The notes under the pieces: generated by a model
Databases searched by the model: none
Seen by the model: only the letters and a program-made list of their open reading frames with translations
What the model was told of the DNA's origin: nothing
Shown here: one piece after another, positions 30,101 to 64,000 of the stretch
Layout of the letters: each line of letters opens with the position of its first letter
How positions within the stretch are numbered: position 1 is the stretch's first letter
Program-made: the position numbers and the translations under genes
NCBI RefSeq assembly: GCF_035594765.1
Contig: NC_085847.1
Location: forward strand, 7,316,001-7,380,000
Reading direction: 5' to 3'
Length of the DNA stretch: 64,000 nt
Source of the DNA: Anolis carolinensis
Lineage: Eukaryota

Positions 30101-32731
30101 TTCCCTTCCAGGCAAAAAGGAACCGGGAGCATTGGTTTGATGACCTTCCACGGACTGCGTTCCTTATTTTTAAAGGTAATGCCCTCCAATTGGAGAGGCC
30201 TTCCTTGAACTACCAGTGACTTCTCTCCTATATGAAAGATTGTTTGATTCCTTACAGGAAGGGTCTTAAATTAAGATTTGAACTCATTAACACTGTTTTT
30301 CTTGTATGTTCCTCCTACCAAACAGGCATTAACATACTGGTGAATTCCCGAGCCTTCCAGTACACTATGTGTAAGTCTTGCAGGCCATTCTTTGGTCCAT
30401 TTGCTGTCCATAGAGCGGCTTTCCCTTAAGGCAAATGGAAAGATCGGGACCTTTTAGTAGCATGAGGAATGGAGTCCTTGGGAATGCATTGGCAGAAAGG
30501 TGGGATAAAAGCCCAACAGGTCGATAAATTGAGGACTTTTACCTTTGGATCCTATTTGGTTCTGATTAATATATCACATATATATCATATATACCTATCC
30601 CTGGGGAGGTAGGGTGGGATACAAATAAAGTATTACAGTAGAGTCTCACTTATCCAAGCTAAACGGGCCGGCAGAAGCTTGGATAAGCGAATATCTTGGA
30701 TAATAAGGAGGGATTAAGGAAAAGCCTATCAAACATCAAATTAGGTTATGATTTTACAAATTAAGCACCAAAACAATGTTTTACAACAAATTTGACAGAA
30801 AAAGTAGTTCAATACACAGTAATGTTATGTTGTAATTTCTGTATTTATGAATTTAGCATCAAAATATCACGATATATTGAAAACATTGACTACAAAAATG
30901 CATTGGATAATCCAGAGGCTTGGATAAGCGAGGCTTGGATTAGTGAGACTGTACTGTATTATTATTATTATTATTATTATTTTAAAAAAACATAAATAAA
31001 TGGCATCCCAAGGTCAGTGTTTTTACACATCTGGACTATCCTAGACTCTGCTGGAAAGCCATAAAACCCTGATCCTTGGTTGTGTTTTCTAGATACTCTG
31101 GTGGCAGTGAATGGCCTCTGGATCTTAGTGGAAACCTTTATGCTCCGAGGTACATAATCCTGCCTCCTTTTGGGTCTTGCTCCCTCTTCTCCATTGGGAT
31201 GTGGTTTTAAGGCCCCTCTGAGATGTGCACGCTTCGTTTTTCTTCTTCTCTAGATGGAATCTTTTCCCGGGACGTCCCTTGGAGTTACATTGTTTTCCTT
31301 ACAAGTAAGTCTCAGTGCTCACTGTGAGGCCCAAGATGGCTCACAGTGTGGCTTTAAAAAACAGATAGTGCTAACAACCGCGCAAACTTCATTTTTAGAC
31401 ATTTTTCCTTCTTGTGCCAACAGTCTATGGGGTCGAGGTGTTACTGAAGATCACCGGATTGGGGCCTGTGGAGTATCTCTCTTCGGGCTGGAATCTGTAA
31501 GTGTGTTGTCGCACCTTTTTCTGGTTCGGTCTCACAAACTCCCCATTGAAGGACCCTTCCCCTTTTTCTCTTCCAGCTTTGATTTTTCGGTCACCTTGTT
31601 TGCTTTCTTGGGTCTCTTGGCGCTGGCGTTTGACATGGAGCCATTCTACTTCATCGTCGTTCTGCGGCCTCTGCAGTTACTCAGGTAAGTCGATGATCAA
31701 AGGCCTTCAAAGCAAGTTGGAAGTGAAGCTGGGAACGTTCATTTATACAGCGGTCTAGTGGAGAACTTGGTTTGCAAATGGTCTCCTTTGGTGAGGCCAC
31801 ATTAGGGTCCAAAGCAAATGGAGAACAGCCAGGAATCGATATCTGGGTTTCTGGGAGATCAAGATACGGAGCAAATGTACATTTCTCTCTCTTGTCACAG
31901 GCTCTTTAAACTGAAGAAACGTTACCGGAATGTCTTGGATACGATGTTTGAGCTGCTTCCCAGAATGGCCAGGTATAATCCTGAGCTGGATTCCTTTTCT
32001 CTTTGGAATGGAGTGAGAAGAGAGGCTGGGCATAGTTCAGCCCTTTTTTACTTACACTCAGGCATTCCTATTATTATTTACTCATCCAATGAGTTAATTA
32101 GATTTGCATCCTTTCTTTTGCCTGGTACGGAGTCTAACGTCGCTTGCAATGTAGAGGAAAACAAAATGCCTATAAAACCCAATCATGGTATTAAATACCA
32201 CTTTACGTACTATTAAATCAACTATCCAACTGAAAACAGCATTAATTTAAACACTGTAGAAGCCTTCAGAAGGCCACAATGACTCTCCATTTTGTGTCTC
32301 CAGCCTAGGCTTAACCTTGCTCATCTTCTATTACTGCTTTGCCATCATCGGCATGGAGTTCTTCTCAGGAAAAGTCTTCCCAAACTGTTGCAAGTGAGTA
32401 TATCCGCTTTCCCTTCCTTCCCTTTGGAAAAGCAGGTGTAGGGCAAGCATCTGAAACAATGAGCCGGGGAGGAGTTTGACTTTCATGGCCATTGTTGGTC
32501 ATTTTGTCCCTGGTTTCCTCTTCAGCGCCAGCACAGTGGCGGATGCCTACCGCTGGGTGAACCACACCATTGGGAACAAGACCGTGATGGAGGAGGGCTA
32601 CTACTATCTCAACAACTTTGACAACGTTTTGAACAGCTTTGGTAAGGGCCGAAACGCTGCTCCTTTAACAAGTGTATATGAGCATATGTGAGAAATTCCT
32701 GTTGAGTGTGAGGTACAGTGTGTGAGGCCTC

Positions 32732-32778
<47 letters not shown>

Positions 32779-35009
32779 AGTGAGTTAAAGAAGAGAACAA
32801 ATCTAAAATGCTTCCAATTTCTCCGGTGTAAAAAATTAGAGTAATAAAATGGTGTTGGACATCTCAACAGAGGGAACAGCACAATCCAGGTGTCTCAATT
32901 TTTACTGTCTTTGTATCATAGAGATATTTTTTTCTCTTCCTCCTCCTTCCTCCTCTGCCCACCCCCAATTTCCTCCACACAGTTACCCTGTTTGAACTGA
33001 CAGTTGTCAATGACTGGTATATCATCATGGTAAGTAGTTCACCAACATTGCATCAGGGTGGCAAGGCCTGAAGGGATCCCCAACAACCCCCCAAACCATG
33101 TCCATTGCCTTTCCAGGAAGGGGTGACGTCCGAGACTTCGCATTGGAGCCGCCTCTACTTCATGATTTTTTACATCGTGACCATGGTGAGCTCAGTTTGC
33201 AACTGTGACATTTTGTAAATTGACGTTGCTGTACGCGGATAGGCTTCTGGAAGGCACATATGCACACAGTGTCCCCATCTTCCAAACCTTGGGTGGACAG
33301 CAATATACAAATCCCTACATTTTCAAATAACAGTGGTTGAAAACTCCTTATAACCAAGTCCCTGAGCCCTGAAAATCAGTTCAAAAGACATCAATAAAAC
33401 ACCAGATGCTGATGAGCTACCTTTTCCCCATTCTCTTCCCGTTCTTAGGTTGTGATGACCATCATTGTCGCCTTTATACTGGAGGCGTTTGTGTTCCGCA
33501 TGAACTACACCCGGAAGAATCACGATTCCGAAGGTCTGAGGGGCATATATAGGTCTTGCACGTATTCCCACTCTGTGGTTCTCCCAGAATAACTTTGGGA
33601 TGCAACATTTTGGCCATTATCGTTTTCTTTTGTGGGTTTAGGACAAGATTTGAGGGACGGTGGTTAGGAGCAGCAAAGGGCCTGCTTCTGTTGCCTCCTC
33701 ACCCCTCCCTGCCCTATGTCTTTCTCCTCTGCAGAAGACAGTGGCATTGTATTAGAGAGGGAAGTCTCCAAGGAAGAAGTCACCGCCGTAGCAGAGATGT
33801 ATGGAAGATTCAGCAGTGCTTCGGCTGCCGGCCAGCTGCTCAGGATCGTCTCCCAGATGGACCGGCACCAGGTGAGTCTCCTGTCCTGGGTCAGTGACCA
33901 TCCAAGTCTTTTTCTTCCCCTTAAAGGGGGAAGCTTTGGTCCTTGGTCCTTTGTTTTAAACCATTGTATGCTTGTTTTATATCTGTAAGCCGTCCCGAGC
34001 CCCTCTGAGGAGATGGTAGNNNNNNNNNNNNNNNNNNNNNNNNNNNNNNNNNNNNNNNNNNNNNNNNNNNNNNNNNNNNNNNNNNNNNNNNNNNNNNNNN
34101 NNNNNNNNNNNNNNNNNNNNNNNNNNNNNNNNNNNNNNNNNNNNNNNNNNNTGGGGTTGCATTGTCCCGTTCTCTGACTAGTCTGCCTCCTTTTCCTTTA
34201 GCAAACATCTATGCTTTTCTTGGGTCGGCGCTCGAGGACCAAGAGTGATTTAAGTATGAAGATGTATGAGGAAGAGATACAGGTAATAATAATAATAATA
34301 ATAATTTTTATGTTTTGCCCGCCTCTCCTTTTGGCTCGAGAAGGGGCACGACACAGTCAAAGACATTTGTAAAAGCACCGATTCAAACACACATATTAAA
34401 ATACATGACACAAAAGTTGAAACACAATACAAATAGGTGATGTGAAACTAAACACACCCAGATTGGCATGATGTGTGTTGGCTGTTCTAACCGTGTTCCC
34501 AGGCACCCCCCATCCCTTTACCATTGTTCAGCGAGAATCTCCTTGATTGTTCAAGAATCCAAACTCCAGCTTTCTGCCCTCAGCTGTCACTATATGTATG
34601 GCCTTTGGGGCCATCTTTAGCCCAAGGGGAGCCTTTCTCAAACAGGAAATCCCTTCCAAGCTCCTCCCTGATGGAAAAAAATGTCTAAAGTGGTGAAGGG
34701 AAGTATACTTTGGGGGGCATTTTGGGGCAAAACACAATTGTCATTATTTATAGCCTGGTACTTTTTATGCTTCAATGGCCCTGGTGACGTTTTGGAGGTT
34801 CATGAACACACAGTTGTTGCTCTGAGAACCAGTTTGTTGCCGGAAGTGCAATGACTCCTGTTCTTCCTCCTCCTCTCTCTGCTCAGGAATGGTATGAAGA
34901 GCACGCTCGGAAAGAAGAGCGACACTTTCCTTGGCAAGGGGATGGCGAGATGCTTAGCCCCCCGCTGACAGCCCCAGGCCTGCGCCAGCGCTCTCAAACC
35001 ATCATTTAG
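15143..35009 (+). CDS. TPCN1: Two-pore channel 1 (TPC1), 27 coding exons, ~806 aa
   Basis: Exons 15143-15224, 24458-24582, 24748-24924, 25181-25294, 25732-25862, 26899-26987, 27483-27517, 28272-28330, 28710-28809, 29049-29165, 29561-29685, 29802-29850, 30112-30175, 30326-30370, 31093-31149, 31254-31304, 31424-31496, 31577-31684, 31901-31972, 32304-32393, 32526-32641, 32983-33029, 33117-33185, 33449-33533, 33735-33871, 34202-34282, 34887-35009. All are GT-AG and in frame (2421 nt). Motifs: [19 protein letters not shown], filter I TTANFPDVMMP, IIS4 [20 protein letters not shown]-terminal RQRSQTII*. Confidence 0.97.
15611..15933. mobile_element. Tc1/mariner-type MITE
   Basis: Same TIR and TA TSD as 14370-14667. 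Confidence 0.85.
16225..16500 (-). mobile_element. AT-rich retroposon with L2-type tail
   Basis: CCCGCTCTTCTCACCCCGGAGGGGACTCAGAGCGGCTTACAA plus AT-rich body, as at 1790-2050. Confidence 0.65.
30636..30956. mobile_element. Tc1/mariner-type MITE in a TPCN1 intron
   Basis: Same TIR and TA TSD. Confidence 0.85.
32733..32778. repeat. (GAT)n microsatellite
   Basis: About 15 perfect TGA/GAT units. Confidence 0.9.
34020..34151. other. Assembly gap
   Basis: Run of N inside a TPCN1 intron. Confidence 1.
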
Positions 35010-36793
35010 GCCCAGCTGACTCGGCGATACTTCTCCTCTTCTGCAACAACCACTTCTTTCTTCACTTGGCCATCTAGTGTAGCCTGGCAGAAGAACTCCT
35101 CCTGGGACTCTTTGGGAGAAGAGATGTCTAGTTCTGCTTCTGCCAAATCCTGCTGCTGTCCTGATTCCTGCCAGGGACATTGGGGTGGAGGACATTGAAG
35201 GCATGGCTTGGGGAGGGTAGCAAGCCGGATGGAGTTCTGGCTTCAGACTGATGGGAGATGAAGTTTAACCACAGCTTGAGGGCCATCACATTGCCCTCAA
35301 ATGCCTCCATCCAGTACCTAAACCCAACTAGAGTTAACCCACTAAAGTAGTTGGCAAATGGTAAGTGAACTTTTAAAATCCATTCCTTCCATGGGTCGAC
35401 TCTGGTTGATTCTGGATCTAGACCGGGAGAGAGAATCTAACATTCTGACTCCCCTCTGCAAAAAGACTTGTATTCCATTAGGTATAAATGTAACTTCCTG
35501 AAACCGTTAAAACTTGGGGATCTTCTTCACTGCACTCCAGCTGGGAAAGGGAGATATTTCACAGCAATAATTCTTTTTGACAAAGCGATGTTCTGTCAGA
35601 GAGGATGCCCTTGTTTGGCCTCCTCCCTGATTCCTGGGCTCTCTCCCGACAACTCTTTGTGCAGAGATAGAAAGCAATAAAACGAAGAGGGGGGTGACCG
35701 AGTGCCATCGTTCCTTGGTTGGAAACGTGCGCATGGGGGGAGCTGGAGCTCTTTACCTCAAGCCTTTCTCTCCTCAGTTCAATCTGAGCCACCAAAGAAG
35801 GCCACACTTCTCTGCCACGGCTCCCACTTAATTTCCCTTGCTATCCCCAAGCAGAAAAGACTGCTGCAAGGTAACCAGAGAGGTGGGAACAAACCTAAAA
35901 CTTGCCCAGTTAACATTGGCTCAAAATAAATCTAGTCATTTCCAGGTGGGCAAAGTGTAAAGCTCCATCAGCCTGTGTATTCTGGAGGCCAAGGGCTGCT
36001 CCTTTTCCTTCAACCATACTCTAATCCCTGGCTTTCTGGGTCCGAAGGAATTGGTGCCCAGGTACCATGCAGATGCCAAGCGGAAAGCATTGTGTAAGGA
36101 GACACCAGATACCTCCTTGCGTAACATCCAAGCAAATATAACCCTGGTTAAGAGGTGCTCGGCCAGTTCAAGTCCCCAAGAACATTGCCCCTGGTTATTT
36201 TTGATGAGAAATTAATCTTGGTTTCCCTTTTGGTGAAAGGGAAACTCGAGTCTCTCCATTTGCCAGATCACTAACTAGTAGAAGCAAATCTCTGTGTAGC
36301 TTTTTGGGGCCGGTTCATGAGAGATCCAACTTAGGCGAGCTAGTCTTACCATTCCTTTACTCTCACTGCGATCTTAAACTTTGTTACTCCGCGTAGGTAA
36401 GGATGTGACATAGAGGAGCGCCAAGCCAAGATCGCTTCTGGGAACAAAGATCCACATCATAGGAAATCTCTGTAAGGTCTGAAGTCAAGGATTCTTTGGC
36501 CACGTTGCTAACTAATCCAGCTGTCCCTCGATTTGCACTGTATCTTTTTGTGTTTTGTAAAGAATAAGCTAATCCTTAATTCCCGAAGCGACTTCCTTCC
36601 ACTGTCTTGGAGGCCGGAAGGAAAAGCAAGCTCAGTATGGGGCATCCCCTTCTAACCCTTCTCTCCCTTGGACAAACCTTTAACTCCAAAGACAATCATG
36701 GGTCAGGATGAAACCCTGGGTGGGTTTCGTATGTTGGCTGTTGTAATAATGATGTCTGAAACAGTATTATATAGGTGTTTCCAGGCACGATTC

Positions 36794-36799
36794 AATAAA
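36794..36799 (+). terminator. Likely TPCN1 polyadenylation signal
   Basis: AATAAA ~1.8 kb after the stop, with a U/GU-rich downstream element (TTTGTTTTGG ~36830). Confidence 0.5.
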
Positions 36800-37191
36800 C
36801 CTTTGTAAGCATTCCCAAGGCCTGCTGGACTTTGTTTTGGGGGGAGAGGGCACTCGCAAAGCTGTGCCAAAGGATATAGCCAGCCTTTCCTCTACTTCGG
36901 TTTGAAGCCCGTGGTTTATGTTTGGACCTCTTTCAGCTTTTTAGAGCACACTGCAATGTGATGACCAAATTCTCCATCAGGTTTCCCTCTGAGAAATGTG
37001 TCTTAGTTCCATACTCAAGTATGGTCCGGAAAAGCTCTTAAAACAGTTGTTTCTCTTGTATAAGATCCCTTGGCTCACTCTTGGGCTTAGAAATGTTGAA
37101 CTGCACCATATAAGCCATTCTCGGTGCTGAAACCATCTGCAGGTCAACTGTATAAGCACTGAAAACGAAGCGTTCCTTTTCATTTTTTGCC

Positions 37192-37197
37192 TTTATT
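37192..37197 (-). terminator. Likely SLC8B1 polyadenylation signal
   Basis: TTTATT (AATAAA on minus) ~1.9 kb downstream of the SLC8B1 stop, convergent with the TPCN1 3' UTR. Confidence 0.5.
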
Positions 37198-47500: not shown

Positions 47501-50500
47501 TTAAAAATGTATTTGTTATGCAATGCTTTTGACACGAAATAAAAATCCAAGATATTCGCTTATCCAAGGTTCTGCCGGCCCGTTTAGCTTGGATAAGCGA
47601 GACTCTACTGTGTAACTTCCGGGTGAGAAGGGCGGGATTATAAATGTAACAAATAATAAATATTAAATAAAAATAAAATAAAAAACACTCGAAAATATGG
47701 AGAAGTCTATCTTTGTTTGTGGATTGGTTCCAAAGGGCAGAATTAAAAGCTAAGAACTGAAAAGATTTTTCAGGCATCCTTACTTTGAGTGCGATAGTGG
47801 CCTGAGCTATCATAGAGAAGGGTGTATTTTTCTGTTAGCGACTACTTTTAAGAGACCCCAGACAGTCATGGGCTGGACCTGAGACCTTCTGGACACAGAG
47901 AAGGAAGTCTGGTGGCTTCTTTGCTCCTTTCCTTACCTGGCTCTGCAGGGCTAGGCGGGGCCAGCCTCTCTCTGCGCTGCCTCTTGTGAAGCCACGTGGA
48001 CACCACCACTGTCAAGACGTAGAAGATGTACAGCCCAAGGTAACCTGCAAAACCAAAAAAGTTGCTTCACGACAGCCCAGACCGCCCTGATCTCGAGGGC
48101 CTTTAGGCTCCAAAGGCCCCTTGACCTCGTCTAGCAATGGCTTCTACCTCTGGACTTACTCAAGGCTTCTCCCAAGGTGACCTCCTCGAAATAGAGTGCC
48201 ACGAAGGTCAAGAAGACCGCCACCATATAGAAGACGGCATCCCTGAGGAATGGCCTGGAGGCTGCTGTGAAGGGCCGGACCAGGGCTATGCCGCCCGCCA
48301 CGATCGTGGTGACAAAGATGCCGGCACCTAGAAAGAAAACATCGGTTCGGTTAAGTGAATAGCGACCTCTCTCACCCACATGGCCACGGAGATGTGAGAC
48401 TGGGCACAGGGGACGATGACAATGTTCCTTATGCCGGGCTGGTTAGCAGCCAGCTGCAATAAATCACTCTGAGTTTGAAGCCAGCCCATGTTGGGGTGAG
48501 CACCCGACAATGAAAAATAAAACATAGCCCTTGCTCGTTGCTGACCTAAGCAACCCAAAAGATAGTTGCATTGATCAAGTAGGAAATTTAGGTACCATAT
48601 GTGGGGAGGCTAATTTACGACACCATAAAAATCATCCAGCCGCCGTTGGAATGAGGAAGTTGCCGTCGCAGTGGATGATGAAGCAGCTACTCCCCGTGGC
48701 TGGAATCAAACATACCCTCAGGAAGCTGGAAGCTGGAGAAGGTTTAAATTGCCTCTGCGTCTGTCTCTGTCTCTTTTCTATGTTATATGGAATTGAATGT
48801 TTGCCTTATATGTGTACAATGTGATCCACCCTGAGTCCCCTTTGGGGTGAGAAAGAAGGGCGGAATATAAATACTGTAAATAAATAAATAAATAAATAAT
48901 GAATAAATTATGCCAAACGCACTGGGCCAAAGGGACACTCTAAGCACTCCAAGAAGTGCAACGTCTGGAAAACAACACGAGTTCAGAGTGCAAACCAGGA
49001 AGGAAGGAAGCAGGGCAGGTCCCACCAAAGCAGGAAGGGAAAGGAAGAGAAGGACTGCCAATTGCAATTTGTCATAAAGCGTCCGGAACAAACGCATACC
49101 GAAGAGTGCGCCAATGGCTAGACCGGCGGTCCGGGGGTCCGAGAACGCCACCACGGCACTGAAGACGTCTGGTGCCCCATTCCCAAAGGCCAGAAAGGTG
49201 ACACCATGGAAGAGAGCGTTAAGGAAAAGATCGGGTGTCGGATTGGATGCAAAATCCCACTCCAAACCTCATATAAACATACTAGCTGTGCCCGGCCACG
49301 CGTTGCTGTGGCGAAGTATGGTGGTATGGGAAATAAAGTATTGAGGAACTGGTGGTAGTTAAGGTCAAGGGTAAAGGTGTAGAGTCCAGATAATCCAGTT
49401 AAAGCAGATAATATATAAGATTATATGGGTTATATAGCTGTGTGGAAGGGCCTTGAGTCTACACTACCATCTAATCCAGTTAAAATCTGATAATCTGTAT
49501 TTTATAGGCAGTGTGGAAGAGGCCTAAGTGAGGCCTAACTCTGCCTGTCCCCTGGGTGAGTGAGTTGCTAGGAGACCAAGTGGGCGGAGCTTAGCCTTCT
49601 AACTGGCAGCAATTGGATAAAAACAATTCTTCCTCTCCCTCTAATTAGGACTTTATTTTTCTTTTCTTTTTGTTGTATCAACCTAGAGGCATGGATGATG
49701 GGTTGTGTTGTCAATTTTTGAGGTTGTGGGGTGTTTAGTTTTGTTGTTTTGGCGGTCGCCAGGATTCCATCACTCTTTTATATATATAGATGTCACCCTC
49801 CAAAAAAGTGGACACTCATATACATGTTTGCACTAAAGCAGCGTTTCTCAACCTGGGGGTCGGGACGCCTGGGGTGTCAAGGGGGGGGGGGGTCACCAAA
49901 GACCAGTATTTTCTGTTGGTTATGGGGGTTCTGTGTGCCAAGTTTGGTCCAATTCTATTGTTGGTGGAGTTCAGAATGCTCTTTGATTGTCGGTGAACTA
50001 TAAATCCCAGTGACTACAACTCCCAAATGAAAAAATCCACCCCCCCCCCAAACCCTACCAGTATTCAAATTTACTCATATTGGGTATTTGTGCTAAATTT
50101 GGTCCAGTGAGTGAAAATACATCCTGCATATGAGATATTTACATTATAATTCATAGCAGTAGCAAAATCGCAGTTATGAAGTAGCAACAAAAATAATTTT
50201 ATGGTTGGGGTTCAGCACAACATGAAGAACTGTATTAAGGGGTCGCAGCATTAGGAAGGCTGAGATCTTGGCTCTGAAGACGTTATATAATGCTCTATAA
50301 TTAAGCCTACATCATATGAATCTATGGGTAGAAATGATGGGTTGGATCCAGTTAGTCATACTTTCAACAGCCCAACTGGTTTTCTATGGGCCTCCTCCCA
50401 GTAGGACTGGATCCAAGCCATTGTTTCAATAGTTTCAAAGCATATGTTCGTTGCGTGCATACTGCACATAGAATAAACCCATGAAAGGATACTGCCACGT

Positions 50501-50596
50501 TGTGGGACAACTTCAGCTTGGTGGAGATGGCAGACAAATTGGGACAGAAGCTGAAGGGGGAAGAGAAAGAAAGAAAGATCGAACGAGAAAGCACAG

Positions 50597-50629
<33 letters not shown>

Positions 50630-52785
50630 TTCAAAGACTATGGCAGAAACCAGTGCAGGTGGTCCCGGTGGTGATCGGCACATTGGGTGCCGTGCCAAAA
50701 GATCTCAGCTGGCATTTGGAAACAGTAGACATTGACAAAATCATGATCTGCCAACTGCAAAAGGCCACCCTACTGGGATCTGCAGCATCATCCGAAAATA
50801 CATCACACAGTCCTAGACACTTGGGAAGTGTTCGACTTGTGGTTTTGTGATACGAAATCCAGCATATCTATCCTGTTTGCTGTGTCATACAATGTAGTTG
50901 TATCAATAATAATAATAATAAAAAACTTTATTTATACCCCGCCACCATCTCCCCGTGGGGACTCGGGGCGGCTTACATGGGGCAGAGGCCCAAACAACAT
51001 AGGACAAAATATAGGCAACATAATGCAAATCACACTATAAAAAGAAAAAAATAGTAATACAATATATCAATTAAAACAAAAATACAGGATAAAAAATTGC
51101 ATTTAAAACACATAAATGGTAAAATCGTAATAAATACAGGATAGATTATTTAAAAAAACCCTCTGGGGCTGATTAATTAAGCACTTTTTGATCCATGTTC
51201 TCCTGGATAAGAATTCTGCTCCCCATTTTCCTTCTGTCCCTCCAAACTGTAGTTGCTTAAAACTTCAGTTGGGCATGTAAAAAAATACAGTTTAGAAAAA
51301 GGGAAGGGAAAGTGATCAACGGAAGGTGGACACAGCGCATAGAAGAGGGAACCCTTTCCAGGGTCTCCCAAAACTTCTGGAGTTTGACTTACAATTTCTC
51401 CGCGGTGACACCAAGGATCACAAAGAGGTAAAGGAGCCACAGCGCCTGCAGGAAACCAAAGGGAAGAGTCTCACGGCACTTCTTCTTTGGAAGGGTGAAA
51501 TCCAGAACCAATTCCCTGAACGTGAGTCACCATGGCACTGCCTCATGCGTTGCAACGGCTTCTCTCAAAGATGTGGTGCTTGGTGCGCCACAAATGGCTT
51601 GATTCTTGGCCCGACTACAAATCCGTTCTGCCCGCCACGCTTTTAGCCCTGAAGTGGCTGGTCCAAACCTATCGTTCCCAAGCTCTGCTTATTCTCCACT
51701 CTATCGTCCTGAGATGCTGAGACACCAAGTCCTTTGAGAAAAGCCCACCCAAAGGAGAACGTCCTCCTGCTGCTCCTGCCCCCCGGCATCTTTCATGCCA
51801 GACCTTCAGAGATCCCATCACAAGCCAAGCAGAAAGAAAAGGGGTCCTCCCCCCCCTTCCCAACCCATGGCTTTGGCCCTTACATAAAGGGTGATGGCCA
51901 GAGGCTGCAGGGAAGCTGGGAAGACGCAGAAGACGCCGTTGAGGTAGTTGAGGAACCCGCCTTCCATCTGACAGTCCGGGTTGGTCTTGATGAAGGAGCA
52001 GCGCCCAGAGCTGTTCTGCTTCTTCACCTCTCTGCACTAGAATAGAGAGAGAGGGAAAGTAAACAGAGAGGGGACATTACTCCAAAAGGGAATGTAAAGG
52101 ATGGGCGGAAAGGAAGAGAGAGAGAAGAAAGGAGAGGAAGGGGAGTGAAAGAAAAGAGCAAAAAGAAGAGGGAGGGAAAGAAGGGATTTTTTATCGTGAG
52201 AACATACTGCAAGTCGCTTCTGGTGTGAGAGAATTGGCCGTCTACAGAGACTTTGCTCTGATGTGTTACCATCCTGCTGGGAGGCTTCTCTCATGTCCCT
52301 GCATGGGAAGCTAGAGCTGACAGGCAGGAGCTCACCCCGTCTTGCGGATTCGAACCACCAACCAACCCATTGTGCCACTGCGGCTCCAAGGAAGGGATTA
52401 GAAGACCACAAAGAGAGAAAGAGCAAAGGGAAGAGTGAAGGAGGGAAGGAAAGAACCAAGGAAGGGGTTCCAATACTAGAAAAAAGACACCAGATGATCC
52501 CAATGGCCTTCCATCCTATATTTATGAAGGACGTTTCCAAGAGTAGCAACCAAACTAACTTGCCCCACAGACAACGACAAGCTTCTCCCGTTCAGGAAGG
52601 AGAGAGGAACTTCCCCTACTTACATCCACGTGTGGACCCGGGTCCAGGACCCTGATGGCCTGCCCTCTGCTGTCCAAGGGAAGAGGCACCGAGCCCTCGG
52701 CATCCTGAGATCCCAAAGGAGATCCTCGAGCGTTGGCCTCTCCAAAGAGCATCCAGGCCACAGCAACGACCCAGACAGTTTGCAT
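39072..52785 (-). CDS. SLC8B1: Mitochondrial Na+/Li+/Ca2+ exchanger NCLX, 15 coding exons, ~586 aa
   Basis: Exons 52624-52785, 51884-52036, 51393-51445, 50493-50550, 49100-49205, 48160-48327, 47937-48044, 46561-46620, 46187-46317, 45036-45177, 44668-44789, 42686-42839, 40743-40823, 40078-40142, 39072-39269 (1761 nt, in frame). Alpha-1 repeat GVTFLAFGNGAPDVFS and alpha-2 repeat GLTLLAWGNSIGD. Confidence 0.96.
39490..39752 (-). mobile_element. R4/Dong LINE 3' fragment in (TAA)n
   Basis: Reverse complement of the 5301-5578 sequence, with TTA repeats on both sides. Confidence 0.8.
40143..40742 (-). other. SLC8B1: U12-type (minor spliceosome) GT-AG intron of SLC8B1
   Basis: 5' site A|GTATCCTTGG; branch-like TCCTGAAC at 40160-40153, ~11 nt before CAG; no long polypyrimidine tract. 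Confidence 0.85.
40441..40680 (+). mobile_element. tRNA-headed SINE with L2-type tail (internally deleted), preceded by a CR1-like 3' remnant (40382-40440)
   Basis: GGGGCTGTGGCGCAG...AGTTCGAGGCC head; tail GCCCTGAGTCCCCTTCGGGGTGAGAAAGAAGGGCGG(TAAA)n. Confidence 0.65.
41419..41726. mobile_element. Tc1/mariner-type MITE (runs into gap)
   Basis: TIR CAGTAGAGTCTCACTTATCCAA; internal sequence inverted relative to the 14370 copy. Confidence 0.85.
41727..41902. other. Assembly gap
   Basis: Run of N. Confidence 1.
42159..42613 (-). mobile_element. Non-autonomous Helitron
   Basis: 5' TC...hairpin-CTAG 3', A|T site; near-identical to 2083-2558. Confidence 0.85.
43346..43668. mobile_element. Tc1/mariner-type MITE between two tandem LINE 3' ends (43200-43340, 43700-43835)
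   Basis: TIRs and TA TSD; the flanking ~135-bp duplicated tail reads ...GTGAGCCGCCCCGAGTCCC...GGAGATGGTGG...ATAAATAAAGTTTATT. Confidence 0.8.
43962..44490 (-). mobile_element. Tandem array of three R4/Dong LINE 3' ends
   Basis: Copies at ~43963-44054, 44072-44164 and 44190-44490, separated by TTA repeats. The longest encodes KNYQDLKIELQRLWQKPVQVVPVVMGTLG. Confidence 0.8.
45580..46157. mobile_element. Tc2/pogo-like DNA transposon remnant with an internal 37-bp tandem repeat
   Basis: Terminus CCGTACATACTCGAGTATAAGCCGA; internal repeat TAATAATAGAGAAAAATAATAAATGTAATAATACCAA about 4 times (45990-46120); related copy at 55578-55955. Confidence 0.65.
46670..47001 (-). mobile_element. Non-autonomous Helitron (short variant)
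   Basis: Same termini as the other copies, with a different shorter interior. Confidence 0.85.
47006..47610. mobile_element. Two adjacent Tc1/mariner-type MITEs (47006-47085 internally deleted; 47101-47610 rearranged)
   Basis: TIR pairs CAGTAGAGTCTC...GAGACTCTACTG. Confidence 0.85.
48430..48900 (+). mobile_element. SINE with L2-type 3' tail
   Basis: Tail CCCTGAGTCCCCTTTGGGGTGAGAAAGAAGGGCGGAATATAAAT(TAAA)n; body shared with 40441-40680. Confidence 0.65.
49282..49790 (-). mobile_element. Non-autonomous Helitron with captured MITE fragment
   Basis: TC...CTAG termini; the interior 49378-49525 resembles the 4832-4978 MITE family. Confidence 0.85.
49839..50271 (+). mobile_element. SPIN (Space Invader) hAT non-autonomous element
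   Basis: 5' CAGCGTTTCTCAACCTGGGGGTCG; 3' ...GTTATGAAGTAGCAACAAAAATAATTTTATGGTTGGGG...AACTGTATTAAGGGGTCGCAGCATTAGGAAGGCTGAGA, matching SPIN termini as I recall them; degenerate 8-bp TSD CACTAAAG/CTCTGAAG. Confidence 0.8.
50631..50893 (+). mobile_element. R4/Dong LINE 3' fragment in (TAA)n
   Basis: Same sequence family as 5301-5578. Confidence 0.8.
52200..52388 (-). mobile_element. tRNA-derived SINE (Sauria-SINE-related)
   Basis: Minus-strand head GGAGCCGCAGTGGCACAATGGG...GGTTCGAATCCGCAAGACGGGGTGAGCTCC. Confidence 0.65.
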
Positions 52786-62993: not shown

Positions 62994-63345
62994 AATATAT
63001 TGTATTATTATTAGTATTATATTGATTAAAACAACCTGTTAAAATCGCCTTCAACAAATGAGTCCAACAGCCCCCTGAGGGGGAAATTTTAGTTTACTGT
63101 TATTGTGCTGCTTCCACTTTAAAGGCCGTGTACTTCTGGGGCTTGTAGTTCAGAGGCTCAAGAGTTTCGGGGCTGAAGAGGCTCAAGAAGGATGTTAGGA
63201 CTTCAAATCCCGGCATTCAGTGCGGTGTTGCTTTAGGCGCCTTGGAGTGCGTTGGGTGATCAGAGCTCCCTCTAGAGGCCACCCCGGCGTAGCGCCGCAG
63301 GGCACGGCTCAGTTGTGCGAGCGGCTGGGCGCTCTTCCTCGGCCC

Positions 63346-63563
63346 ATGGCTCCCGCTTGGCTGCTCCGCTTCTTCGGCCTCGCTTTGCTTTTGGCCCGTT
63401 CTCCAGCCCGCCGCCCGCCTCCCTTCCCGGATCCGGCTGCGGTGCCGACCCGGAGCTGCTCGGTGGTGCTGGAGCCCGGCTCGGCCGCCTTGAAGCTCGT
63501 CAACGGCTGGGCCCCCGGCGCCGTCGCTTGGGCCAACCTCACCGAAGGCATCCGGCAGAACGG
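63346..63563 (+). CDS. PLBD2: Phospholipase B domain containing 2, exon 1 (gene continues beyond window)
   Basis: Signal-peptide-like MAPAWLLRFFGLALLLA..., then RSCSVVLE...AVAWANLTEGIRQNG, matching PLBD2 AVAWANLTNAIRETG. Donor GG|GTAAG; synteny after SLC8B1. Confidence 0.9.
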
Positions 63564-64000
63564 GTAAGCAAGGCGGGCAGGCGCCGGCCAGCCCTCCAGG
63601 CGCTCTGGACTCCCACTCCCAGAATCCTCAGCTGCTGCGGCCAATGAGTAGGCATTCTGGGAGATGAAGTCCCAAACAGCTGGCACTCAGAGTTGGGGAA
63701 ATCTTGCCCTTTGAGCTGCGGTTTGGGGAGGAGAAGGCTCAAGACCTTGGGGAACTACAACTCCTAGGATCCTAGAAGACTGAGCCATGACAATATAGTG
63801 TCAGACTGCCTTCATCCAACAGGATAGGAGGAGAAGGTACCTTTCCATGCAGTTGTAATGCTAAAGGGTTATCAAAACTATCATGTCTAATTCTGGATAC
63901 TCTGATCATAGGAATGACTAGATATTTTGGATTTGGGCTCTGCAGTTTCCCAAGTATTATGGACTTGAGCCCTATATGTTTCCAAGTATTTTGAATTTGG

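What the first reader, a model, noticed from the sequence alone, without database searches (positions are those of the whole stretch)
49206..50492. SLC8B1 intron with minor-spliceosome signals and non-canonical GT-AT ends
Seen: a perfect U12 donor GTATCCTTT after ...CACAACGTGGCA and a perfect U12 branch TTTTCCTTAAC 12 nt before the next exon. The last intron bases are ...TTCCAT, with no AG available. Of the junctions I tried, the GT-AT one uses the U12 donor and restores the conserved HNVA-GVTFLAFGNGAPD alpha-1 repeat. Established: U12 3' sites are positioned by branch distance and tolerate non-AG/AC ends, and GT-AT is rare. Inference: this could be a rate-limiting or error-prone splice just before the ion-binding repeat, and GT-AG-only gene models would mis-annotate it. 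The intron also hosts a Helitron ~55 nt from the branch site and a SPIN MITE.
Basis: partly seen in the sequence, partly recalled or inferred. Interest (0 to 1): 0.75.

Follow-up and report, generated by a model that had tools for sequence, protein, structure and literature searches.

The report
Known GT-AT minor intron in NCLX
This lizard gene for the mitochondrial calcium exporter NCLX has an intron with the signals of the rare minor splicing machinery that ends in AT instead of AG, and spliced transcripts cut it exactly there; it is ordinary in the sense that a GT-AT minor intron of this gene, most likely the same one, has been catalogued in human and mouse since 2006.

Summary
Observation confirmed; novelty refuted. 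The 1,287-nt intron (50492 to 49206, minus strand) has a perfect U12 donor and branch motif and ends in AT, with no AG between the branch and the exon. Only this cut gives NCLX's HNVA|GVTFLAF. Spliced contigs from two studies fit that junction (acceptor read directly, donor from depth arithmetic), and a DNA-like run repeats the AT, so it is no assembly error. A GT-AT U12 intron of this gene (old name SLC24A6) is listed as conserved in human and mouse (Sheth 2006), has 327 human reads (Parada 2014), and is classed minor, mis-spliced in 4 of 9 minor-spliceosome-loss datasets, with a 'minor' orthologue in Anolis carolinensis (Olthof 2024). The mis-annotation claim holds: 48 of 99 sauropsid-dominated protein models that cover these exons are not clean here. 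The 'rate-limiting' idea is untested; no retention was seen. The Helitron is real; the SPIN label is uncertain. The gene has a second U12-type intron (GT-AG, 40742 to 40143), also catalogued. The scan's index held no SLC8B1 note; it noted a GT-AT U12 intron in LIPT1 on other DNA.

The parts
49206..50492 (-). U12-type intron with GT-AT ends, phase 0, between codons for HNVA and GVTFLAF; fourth coding intron of the model
   Evidence: spliced contigs
50484..50492 (-). U12-type donor GTATCCTTT
49218..49228 (-). U12-type branch motif TTTTCCTTAAC, 12 nt before the exon
49206..49207 (-). non-canonical acceptor dinucleotide AT
   Evidence: same letters in DNA-like run X18
50493..50550 (-). upstream exon, 58 nt (FCPNLSAISTKLKLSHNVA)
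49100..49205 (-). downstream exon, 106 nt, start of the first Na/Ca-exchanger alpha repeat (GVTFLAFGNGAPD; 'alpha-1' label recalled)
   Evidence: (matches residues 141-176 of NCLX chains 9ps1, 9z4i)
49282..49790 (-). non-autonomous Helitron-type element in the intron: A|TC start, hairpin, CTAG|T end; three more copies in the window; this copy carries a further insert at about 49373-49546
   Evidence: very high depth
49839..50271 (.). hAT-type MITE, 433 nt; one terminal repeat matches the SPIN-type TIR at 15 of 16, the other is decayed; candidate 8-bp target duplications agree at 6 of 8
40143..40742 (-). second U12-type intron of the gene, GT-AG, donor GTATCCTTG, branch-like TCCTGAAC 10 nt before the exon
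   Evidence: not checked against reads
39072..52785 (-). SLC8B1 (NCLX) coding region, 15 exons, 585 aa from the first ATG after the in-frame stop

Best explanation
This intron of the lizard SLC8B1 (NCLX) gene has U12-type donor and branch signals and is cut at GT and AT in spliced transcripts, most likely by the minor spliceosome, and it is likely the same intron that is already catalogued as GT-AT in human and mouse. Shown here: the signals, the absence of a usable AG, the junction in transcript contigs, and the intact reading frame. Inferred from established U12 biology: U11 reads the donor, U12 reads the branch motif, and the 3' cut is set mainly by its distance from the branch (optimum 11-13 nt), so AT is accepted where AG is absent. 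Shown by others for the human intron: mis-splicing when the minor spliceosome is impaired. The transposons in the intron are later passengers that leave the three signals intact.
For: Signals and spacing; defining features from Turunen 2013, PMC3584512 passages. In 3 of 3 RNA-guess runs the downstream exon piece stops at 49204 and the contig goes on; bin depth shows exactly 49 letters in 50402-50540 for X12 and X14, and of 7 acceptor positions tested only GT-AT predicts both numbers; the same aligner convention reproduces the neighbouring GT-AG intron. 51 of 120 listed homologues read HNVAGVTFLA, two of them full-length proteins from unnamed Logan contigs. Sheth 2006 Table 3 lists SLC24A6 GT-AT as conserved in human and mouse, and states GT-AT supports U12 splicing; SLC24A6 is SLC8B1. 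Parada 2014 supplement: 163-nt GTAT intron, U12-like, 327 reads in 14 of 16 tissues, direct repeat 1, as in the lizard junction. Olthof 2024 Table S6: same coordinates after a constant offset, class minor, responsive in 4 of 9 datasets including U12 morpholino; Table S8: Anolis carolinensis orthologue 'minor' for both human SLC8B1 minor introns. The window's gene has exactly two U12-type introns of 14, in the same order.
Against: The joint is not printed in the joints table (104 rows hidden by repeats) and the upstream exon piece is not listed; the donor side rests on depth arithmetic. X8 has only 28 letters beyond the joint and does not count as bridging, so 2 of 3 runs bridge. The runs are RNA by guess. 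No human DNA was aligned: same position rests on Olthof's orthology table, intron order, and coordinate arithmetic that excludes the next intron downstream but not the one upstream. The human intron did not respond in 5 of 9 datasets, including U4atac and U6atac morpholinos. Minor-spliceosome dependence was not tested in a lizard.
Confidence: 0.95

Rival explanations
1. The AT end is kept by selection as a throttle or an imprecise acceptor: slow or shifted splicing just before the first ion-binding repeat lowers NCLX output, through retention (a stop 42 codons into the intron) or a one-base shift.
For: A non-AG end looks widespread: 40 of 120 protein models read through the acceptor and end in H (39) or Y (1), which means AT or AC; human and mouse are GT-AT. 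Two of 120 models (a turtle, a parrot) imply an acceptor one base further on. Reviews report lower efficiency of non-canonical ends and error-prone U12 acceptors. Retention stop.
Against: No contig covered intron bases 50402-50491 in X12 or X14 and only the exact junction was seen; the human junction has 327 reads and sits in 7 annotated transcripts. Read-through models are biased towards species without AG. The two shifted models may be aligner artefacts. Contigs cannot give levels, so this is weak both ways.
Confidence: 0.12
2. The AT is an assembly error and the true end is AG.
For: None found.
Against: A contig of run X18 (share 0.96, so not identical to the window over the 3' UTR) matches 48913-49300 with no differences; orthologues are non-AG.
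Confidence: 0.01
3. The major spliceosome removes the intron using an upstream AG (54 nt up, in frame) or another cryptic site.
For: An in-frame AG exists at 49261-49260 and would add 18 residues without a stop.
Against: All 3 RNA-guess contigs leave the exon at 49204, not further upstream in the intron; that AG lies before the branch motif; the donor fits U12 at 7 of 7 positions after GT.
Confidence: 0.03

Closest known systems
Human and mouse SLC24A6/SLC8B1 GT-AT U12 intron (Sheth 2006 PMC1557818 Table 3; Parada 2014 PMC4176328 supplement; Olthof 2024 PMC11347168 Tables S6, S8)
   Same: Same gene, same GT-AT ends, U12 class, one shared G at the junction, upstream one of two minor introns in the gene; Anolis carolinensis orthologue already classed minor.
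   Different: 1,287 nt against 163 nt in human, the extra length largely transposons. The tables I saw give the class of the Anolis intron, not its end letters.
Other U12-type GT-AT introns (ADAT2/DEADC1, ALG6, CACNA2D2, OCRL, AP1M1 in the Parada table)
   Same: Same subtype: U12 donor, AT end; 4 human and 3 mouse cases in Sheth 2006, 6 of 20 GTAT rows typed U12 in Parada's total sheet.
   Different: Different genes; nothing mechanistically distinct was found here.
Anolis non-autonomous Helitron and hAT/SPIN elements (Novick 2011, PMC3014272)
   Same: Helitron-type ends, several copies in the window; a SPIN-type terminal repeat.
   Different: No family assignment was possible; the MITE's 433 nt matches neither SPIN_NA11 (273) nor SPIN_NA1 (745), and hAT-N1 has the same terminal repeat.

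Membership tests
U12-type (minor) intron | Extended conserved 5' splice site (RTATCCTTT) | tested here: met
   GTATCCTTT, 0 mismatches; 11 of the other 13 introns have 4 or more mismatches after GT, apart from three rows whose ends were mis-set in that call
U12-type (minor) intron | Conserved branch motif TCCTTAAC | tested here: met
   0 mismatches, the only perfect one among 14 introns
U12-type (minor) intron | Short branch-to-acceptor distance (optimum 11-13 nt) | tested here: met
   12 nt after the motif; optimum from PMC3584512
U12-type (minor) intron | No distinct polypyrimidine tract | tested here: inconclusive
   The 12 nt after the branch are pyrimidine-rich but short
U12-type (minor) intron | Splicing depends on U11/U12/U4atac/U6atac | not testable with these tools
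   Human intron mis-spliced in 4 of 9 loss datasets; no lizard data
GT-AT non-canonical subtype | Transcripts are joined at GT and AT | tested here: met
   2 of 3 RNA-guess runs bridge, third agrees on the acceptor
Orthologue of the human SLC8B1 GT-AT intron | Same gene | tested here: met
   562 of 585 residues match Anolis sagrei NCLX; NCLX structures; alias
Orthologue of the human SLC8B1 GT-AT intron | Same codon position | tested here: met
   Indirect: orthology table plus only two U12-type introns in the same order; coordinate bracketing leaves c.362 or c.420, and the lizard intron at the c.362 site has U2 signals
Helitron (non-autonomous) | 5' TC, 3' CTAG with a hairpin, between A and T, no terminal inverted repeats (end motifs recalled) | tested here: met
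   4 of 4 window copies end CTAG|T; 3 printed starts read A|TC; hairpin -5.5 kcal/mol
SPIN MITE | CAGYGGTTCTCAACCT terminal repeats at both ends, 8-bp target duplication, family length | tested here: inconclusive
   One end 15 of 16, the other not within 3 mismatches; duplication 6 of 8; length fits no listed SPIN family; no repeat library available

The most novel reading that the evidence does not exclude
The AT end has been kept from the amniote ancestor in mammals, birds and reptiles because it makes this splice a deliberate weak point: it retains or slips by one base just before the first ion-binding repeat, tying mitochondrial calcium export to minor-spliceosome activity, in a gene that carries two minor introns.
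Probability: 0.12. Interest if true: 0.45.

Novelty: already known. Interest (0 to 1): 0.1.

Why it matters
As biology it adds little: it extends a catalogued human-mouse GT-AT intron to a lizard and, indirectly, to birds, snakes and turtles. The practical point is annotation: 48 of 99 listed protein models that cover these exons carry invented, shifted or missing residues at the start of the first exchanger repeat, which would mislead alignments and selection scans of NCLX. If the AT end were a selected throttle, it would link minor-spliceosome diseases to mitochondrial calcium handling, but nothing here shows that.

Tried and rejected
No whole genome is held for the window, so no genome-wide U12 background was built. 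Motif counts in the whole window are at chance level and were not used as evidence. No listed run is on record as RNA; the joints table was swamped by transposon copies, so the pieces and depth tables were used. No retention contig is no proof of no retention. Paper searches 'SLC8B1 + minor intron' (0 papers) and 'SLC8B1 + U12' (1 unrelated) missed the record, which sits under the old name and in supplements; none of my 7 searches surfaced a study of this intron's function, which is not proof that none exists. Sheth 2006 supplements could not be read and may give the intron's position; one Parada file was not searched. An attempt to read Table S8 rows for fish, frog, chicken and invertebrates returned only one row cut before column 174, so depth beyond amniotes is open. 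Searches held some wrong exon ends of my own, corrected; stop and identity totals are therefore not used, only the junction peptides. Pfam found nothing in three ORF pieces of the neighbouring genes, so synteny is not claimed from tools. Rejected: assembly error, upstream AG, and the shifted cuts at -3 to +3.

Full report
What is in the sequence. On the minus strand, 50492..49206 is a 1,287-nt stretch that starts GTATCCTTT and ends TTTTCCTTAACGCTCTCTTCCAT. The flanking exons read FCPNLSAISTKLKLSHNVA and GVTFLAFGNGAPDVFS; the second matches residues 141-176 of the two NCLX sequences in the PDB (2 hits). Each motif alone is at chance level in 64 kb, but their places are fixed by the exons: P about 4e-5 for the donor and 7e-4 for the branch slot. 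No AG lies between branch and exon; the nearest are 54 nt upstream and 37 nt downstream.

The gene. A search with the next exon gave 422 relatives, 120 listed, led by Anolis sagrei NCLX. Mapping that protein gives 15 coding exons from 52785 to 39072, an open frame of 585 codons with 562 identical residues; 13 of 14 introns are GT-AG and this one is GT-AT, phase 0. The host is therefore an Anolis lizard; A. carolinensis is my inference, not a tool result.

Is it spliced there? I laid 4 of the 19 runs that hold the 3' UTR on 47900-52050: three guessed to be RNA (X12, X8, X14; three studies) and one DNA-like (X18). In each of the three, one contig carries the exons in series, and the piece for the downstream exon stops at 49204 while the contig goes on (112, 28 and 140 letters). 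The upstream piece is not printed, but bin depth gives 49 letters in 50402-50540 for X12 (48.9-49.1) and X14 (49.0-49.3), and for X12 59 plus 53 letters account for all 112. Intron and exon both begin with G, and the tool gives shared letters to the higher piece, as it does at the neighbouring intron. Of 7 acceptor positions, only GT-AT predicts 49204 and 49. X8 has under 31 letters beyond the joint and counts only for the acceptor. X18 repeats 48913-49300 without a difference, which removes the assembly-error rival. No RNA contig in X12 or X14 covered 50402-50491; contigs drop rare forms, so this does not measure retention.

Other species. Of 120 listed proteins, 51 read HNVAGVTFLA, 40 read through the intron end into the exon, 4 lack the downstream exon, 4 differ otherwise, and 21 hold neither exon. 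The read-through residues are informative: FSLTSPLH (21 of 40) and kin encode the branch motif and an end in H or Y, so AT or AC and not AG; 10 of 120 read on from HNVA as VSF or VSL, as a GTATCC donor would. This set is biased to species without AG and cannot tell AT from AC. Two models (P0047, P0096) imply an acceptor one base further on, either real slippage or an aligner artefact. The mis-annotation claim is thus supported: 48 of 99 models covering these exons are not clean.

What is in print. Sheth 2006 (PMC1557818; passages and one section read) counts 4 human and 3 mouse GT-AT U12 introns and lists SLC24A6 as GT-AT, conserved in both. SLC24A6 is SLC8B1 (PMC6553700, passages). Parada 2014 (PMC4176328; passages and supplement rows) lists chr12:113758491-113758654, 163 nt, GTAT, U12-like, 327 reads in 14 of 16 tissues, 7 annotated transcripts. 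Olthof 2024 (PMC11347168; passages and supplement rows) lists the same 163-nt intron as minor and mis-spliced in 4 of 9 human datasets (MOPD1 fibroblasts, Roifman syndrome, ZRSR2-mutant MDS, U12 morpholino; not CENATAC at either time, MOPD1 amniotic, U4atac or U6atac morpholino), lists a second SLC8B1 minor intron downstream (2 of 9), and marks the Anolis carolinensis orthologue of both as minor. That the human intron is at this codon is indirect but tight: the lizard gene has two U12-type introns in the same order, the junction's one-base repeat agrees, and the coordinate of human c.280 leaves only the introns after c.362 or c.420, the first of which is U2-type in the lizard.

How it works. 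Shown: signals, junction, frame. Inferred from established knowledge (Turunen 2013, PMC3584512, passages): donor and branch define the class, the acceptor is placed 11-13 nt from the branch, and non-canonical ends work, often less efficiently. Retention would stop the frame after 42 codons, and decay of such a message is expected but untested. Whether this limits NCLX is open; I put it at 0.12.

Transposons. A 509-nt element at 49790..49282 has Helitron-type ends and three more copies in the window; its end is 53 nt from the branch motif (end motifs recalled; Novick 2011, PMC3014272, passages, reports six non-autonomous Helitron families in the anole). A 433-nt element at 49839..50271 has one SPIN-type terminal repeat (15 of 16) and an imperfect 8-bp duplication, but fits no listed SPIN length. 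Neither touches the splice signals.

Verdict. Interest 0.10.

Noticed in passing
window 40742..40143 (-): Second U12-type intron of SLC8B1, GT-AG, in the GIIF|NMLVG region; a second minor intron is also listed for human SLC8B1.
   Followed up: partly
proteins P0047 and P0096: Parrot and turtle NCLX models in which an upstream frame shift is cancelled by an acceptor one base past the AT; real slippage or aligner artefact.
   Followed up: partly
window 50331-50427: Inverted repeat with 22-nt arms, 86% complementary, 65 nt inside the donor; folds at -35.8 kcal/mol as RNA, no shuffle control; perhaps a small MITE.
   Followed up: no
window 49373-49546: About 174 nt inserted in this Helitron copy and absent from the copy at 47002-46669; itself high-copy in the runs.
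   Followed up: no
window 49099..48328 (-): The next intron has a donor 2 mismatches and a branch-like motif 2 mismatches from the U12 consensus, 22 nt before a normal AG; probably an ordinary U2 intron.
   Followed up: no
window 52836-52785 (-): An upstream in-frame ATG is followed by a stop, whereas the Anolis sagrei model reads through and is 22 residues longer at the start.
   Followed up: no
window about 31000-39300 (+) and 63276-63567 (+): ORF pieces that I recall as TPCN1-like and PLBD2-like, the neighbours of human SLC8B1; Pfam gave no hit on three pieces, so the names are unconfirmed.
   Followed up: partly
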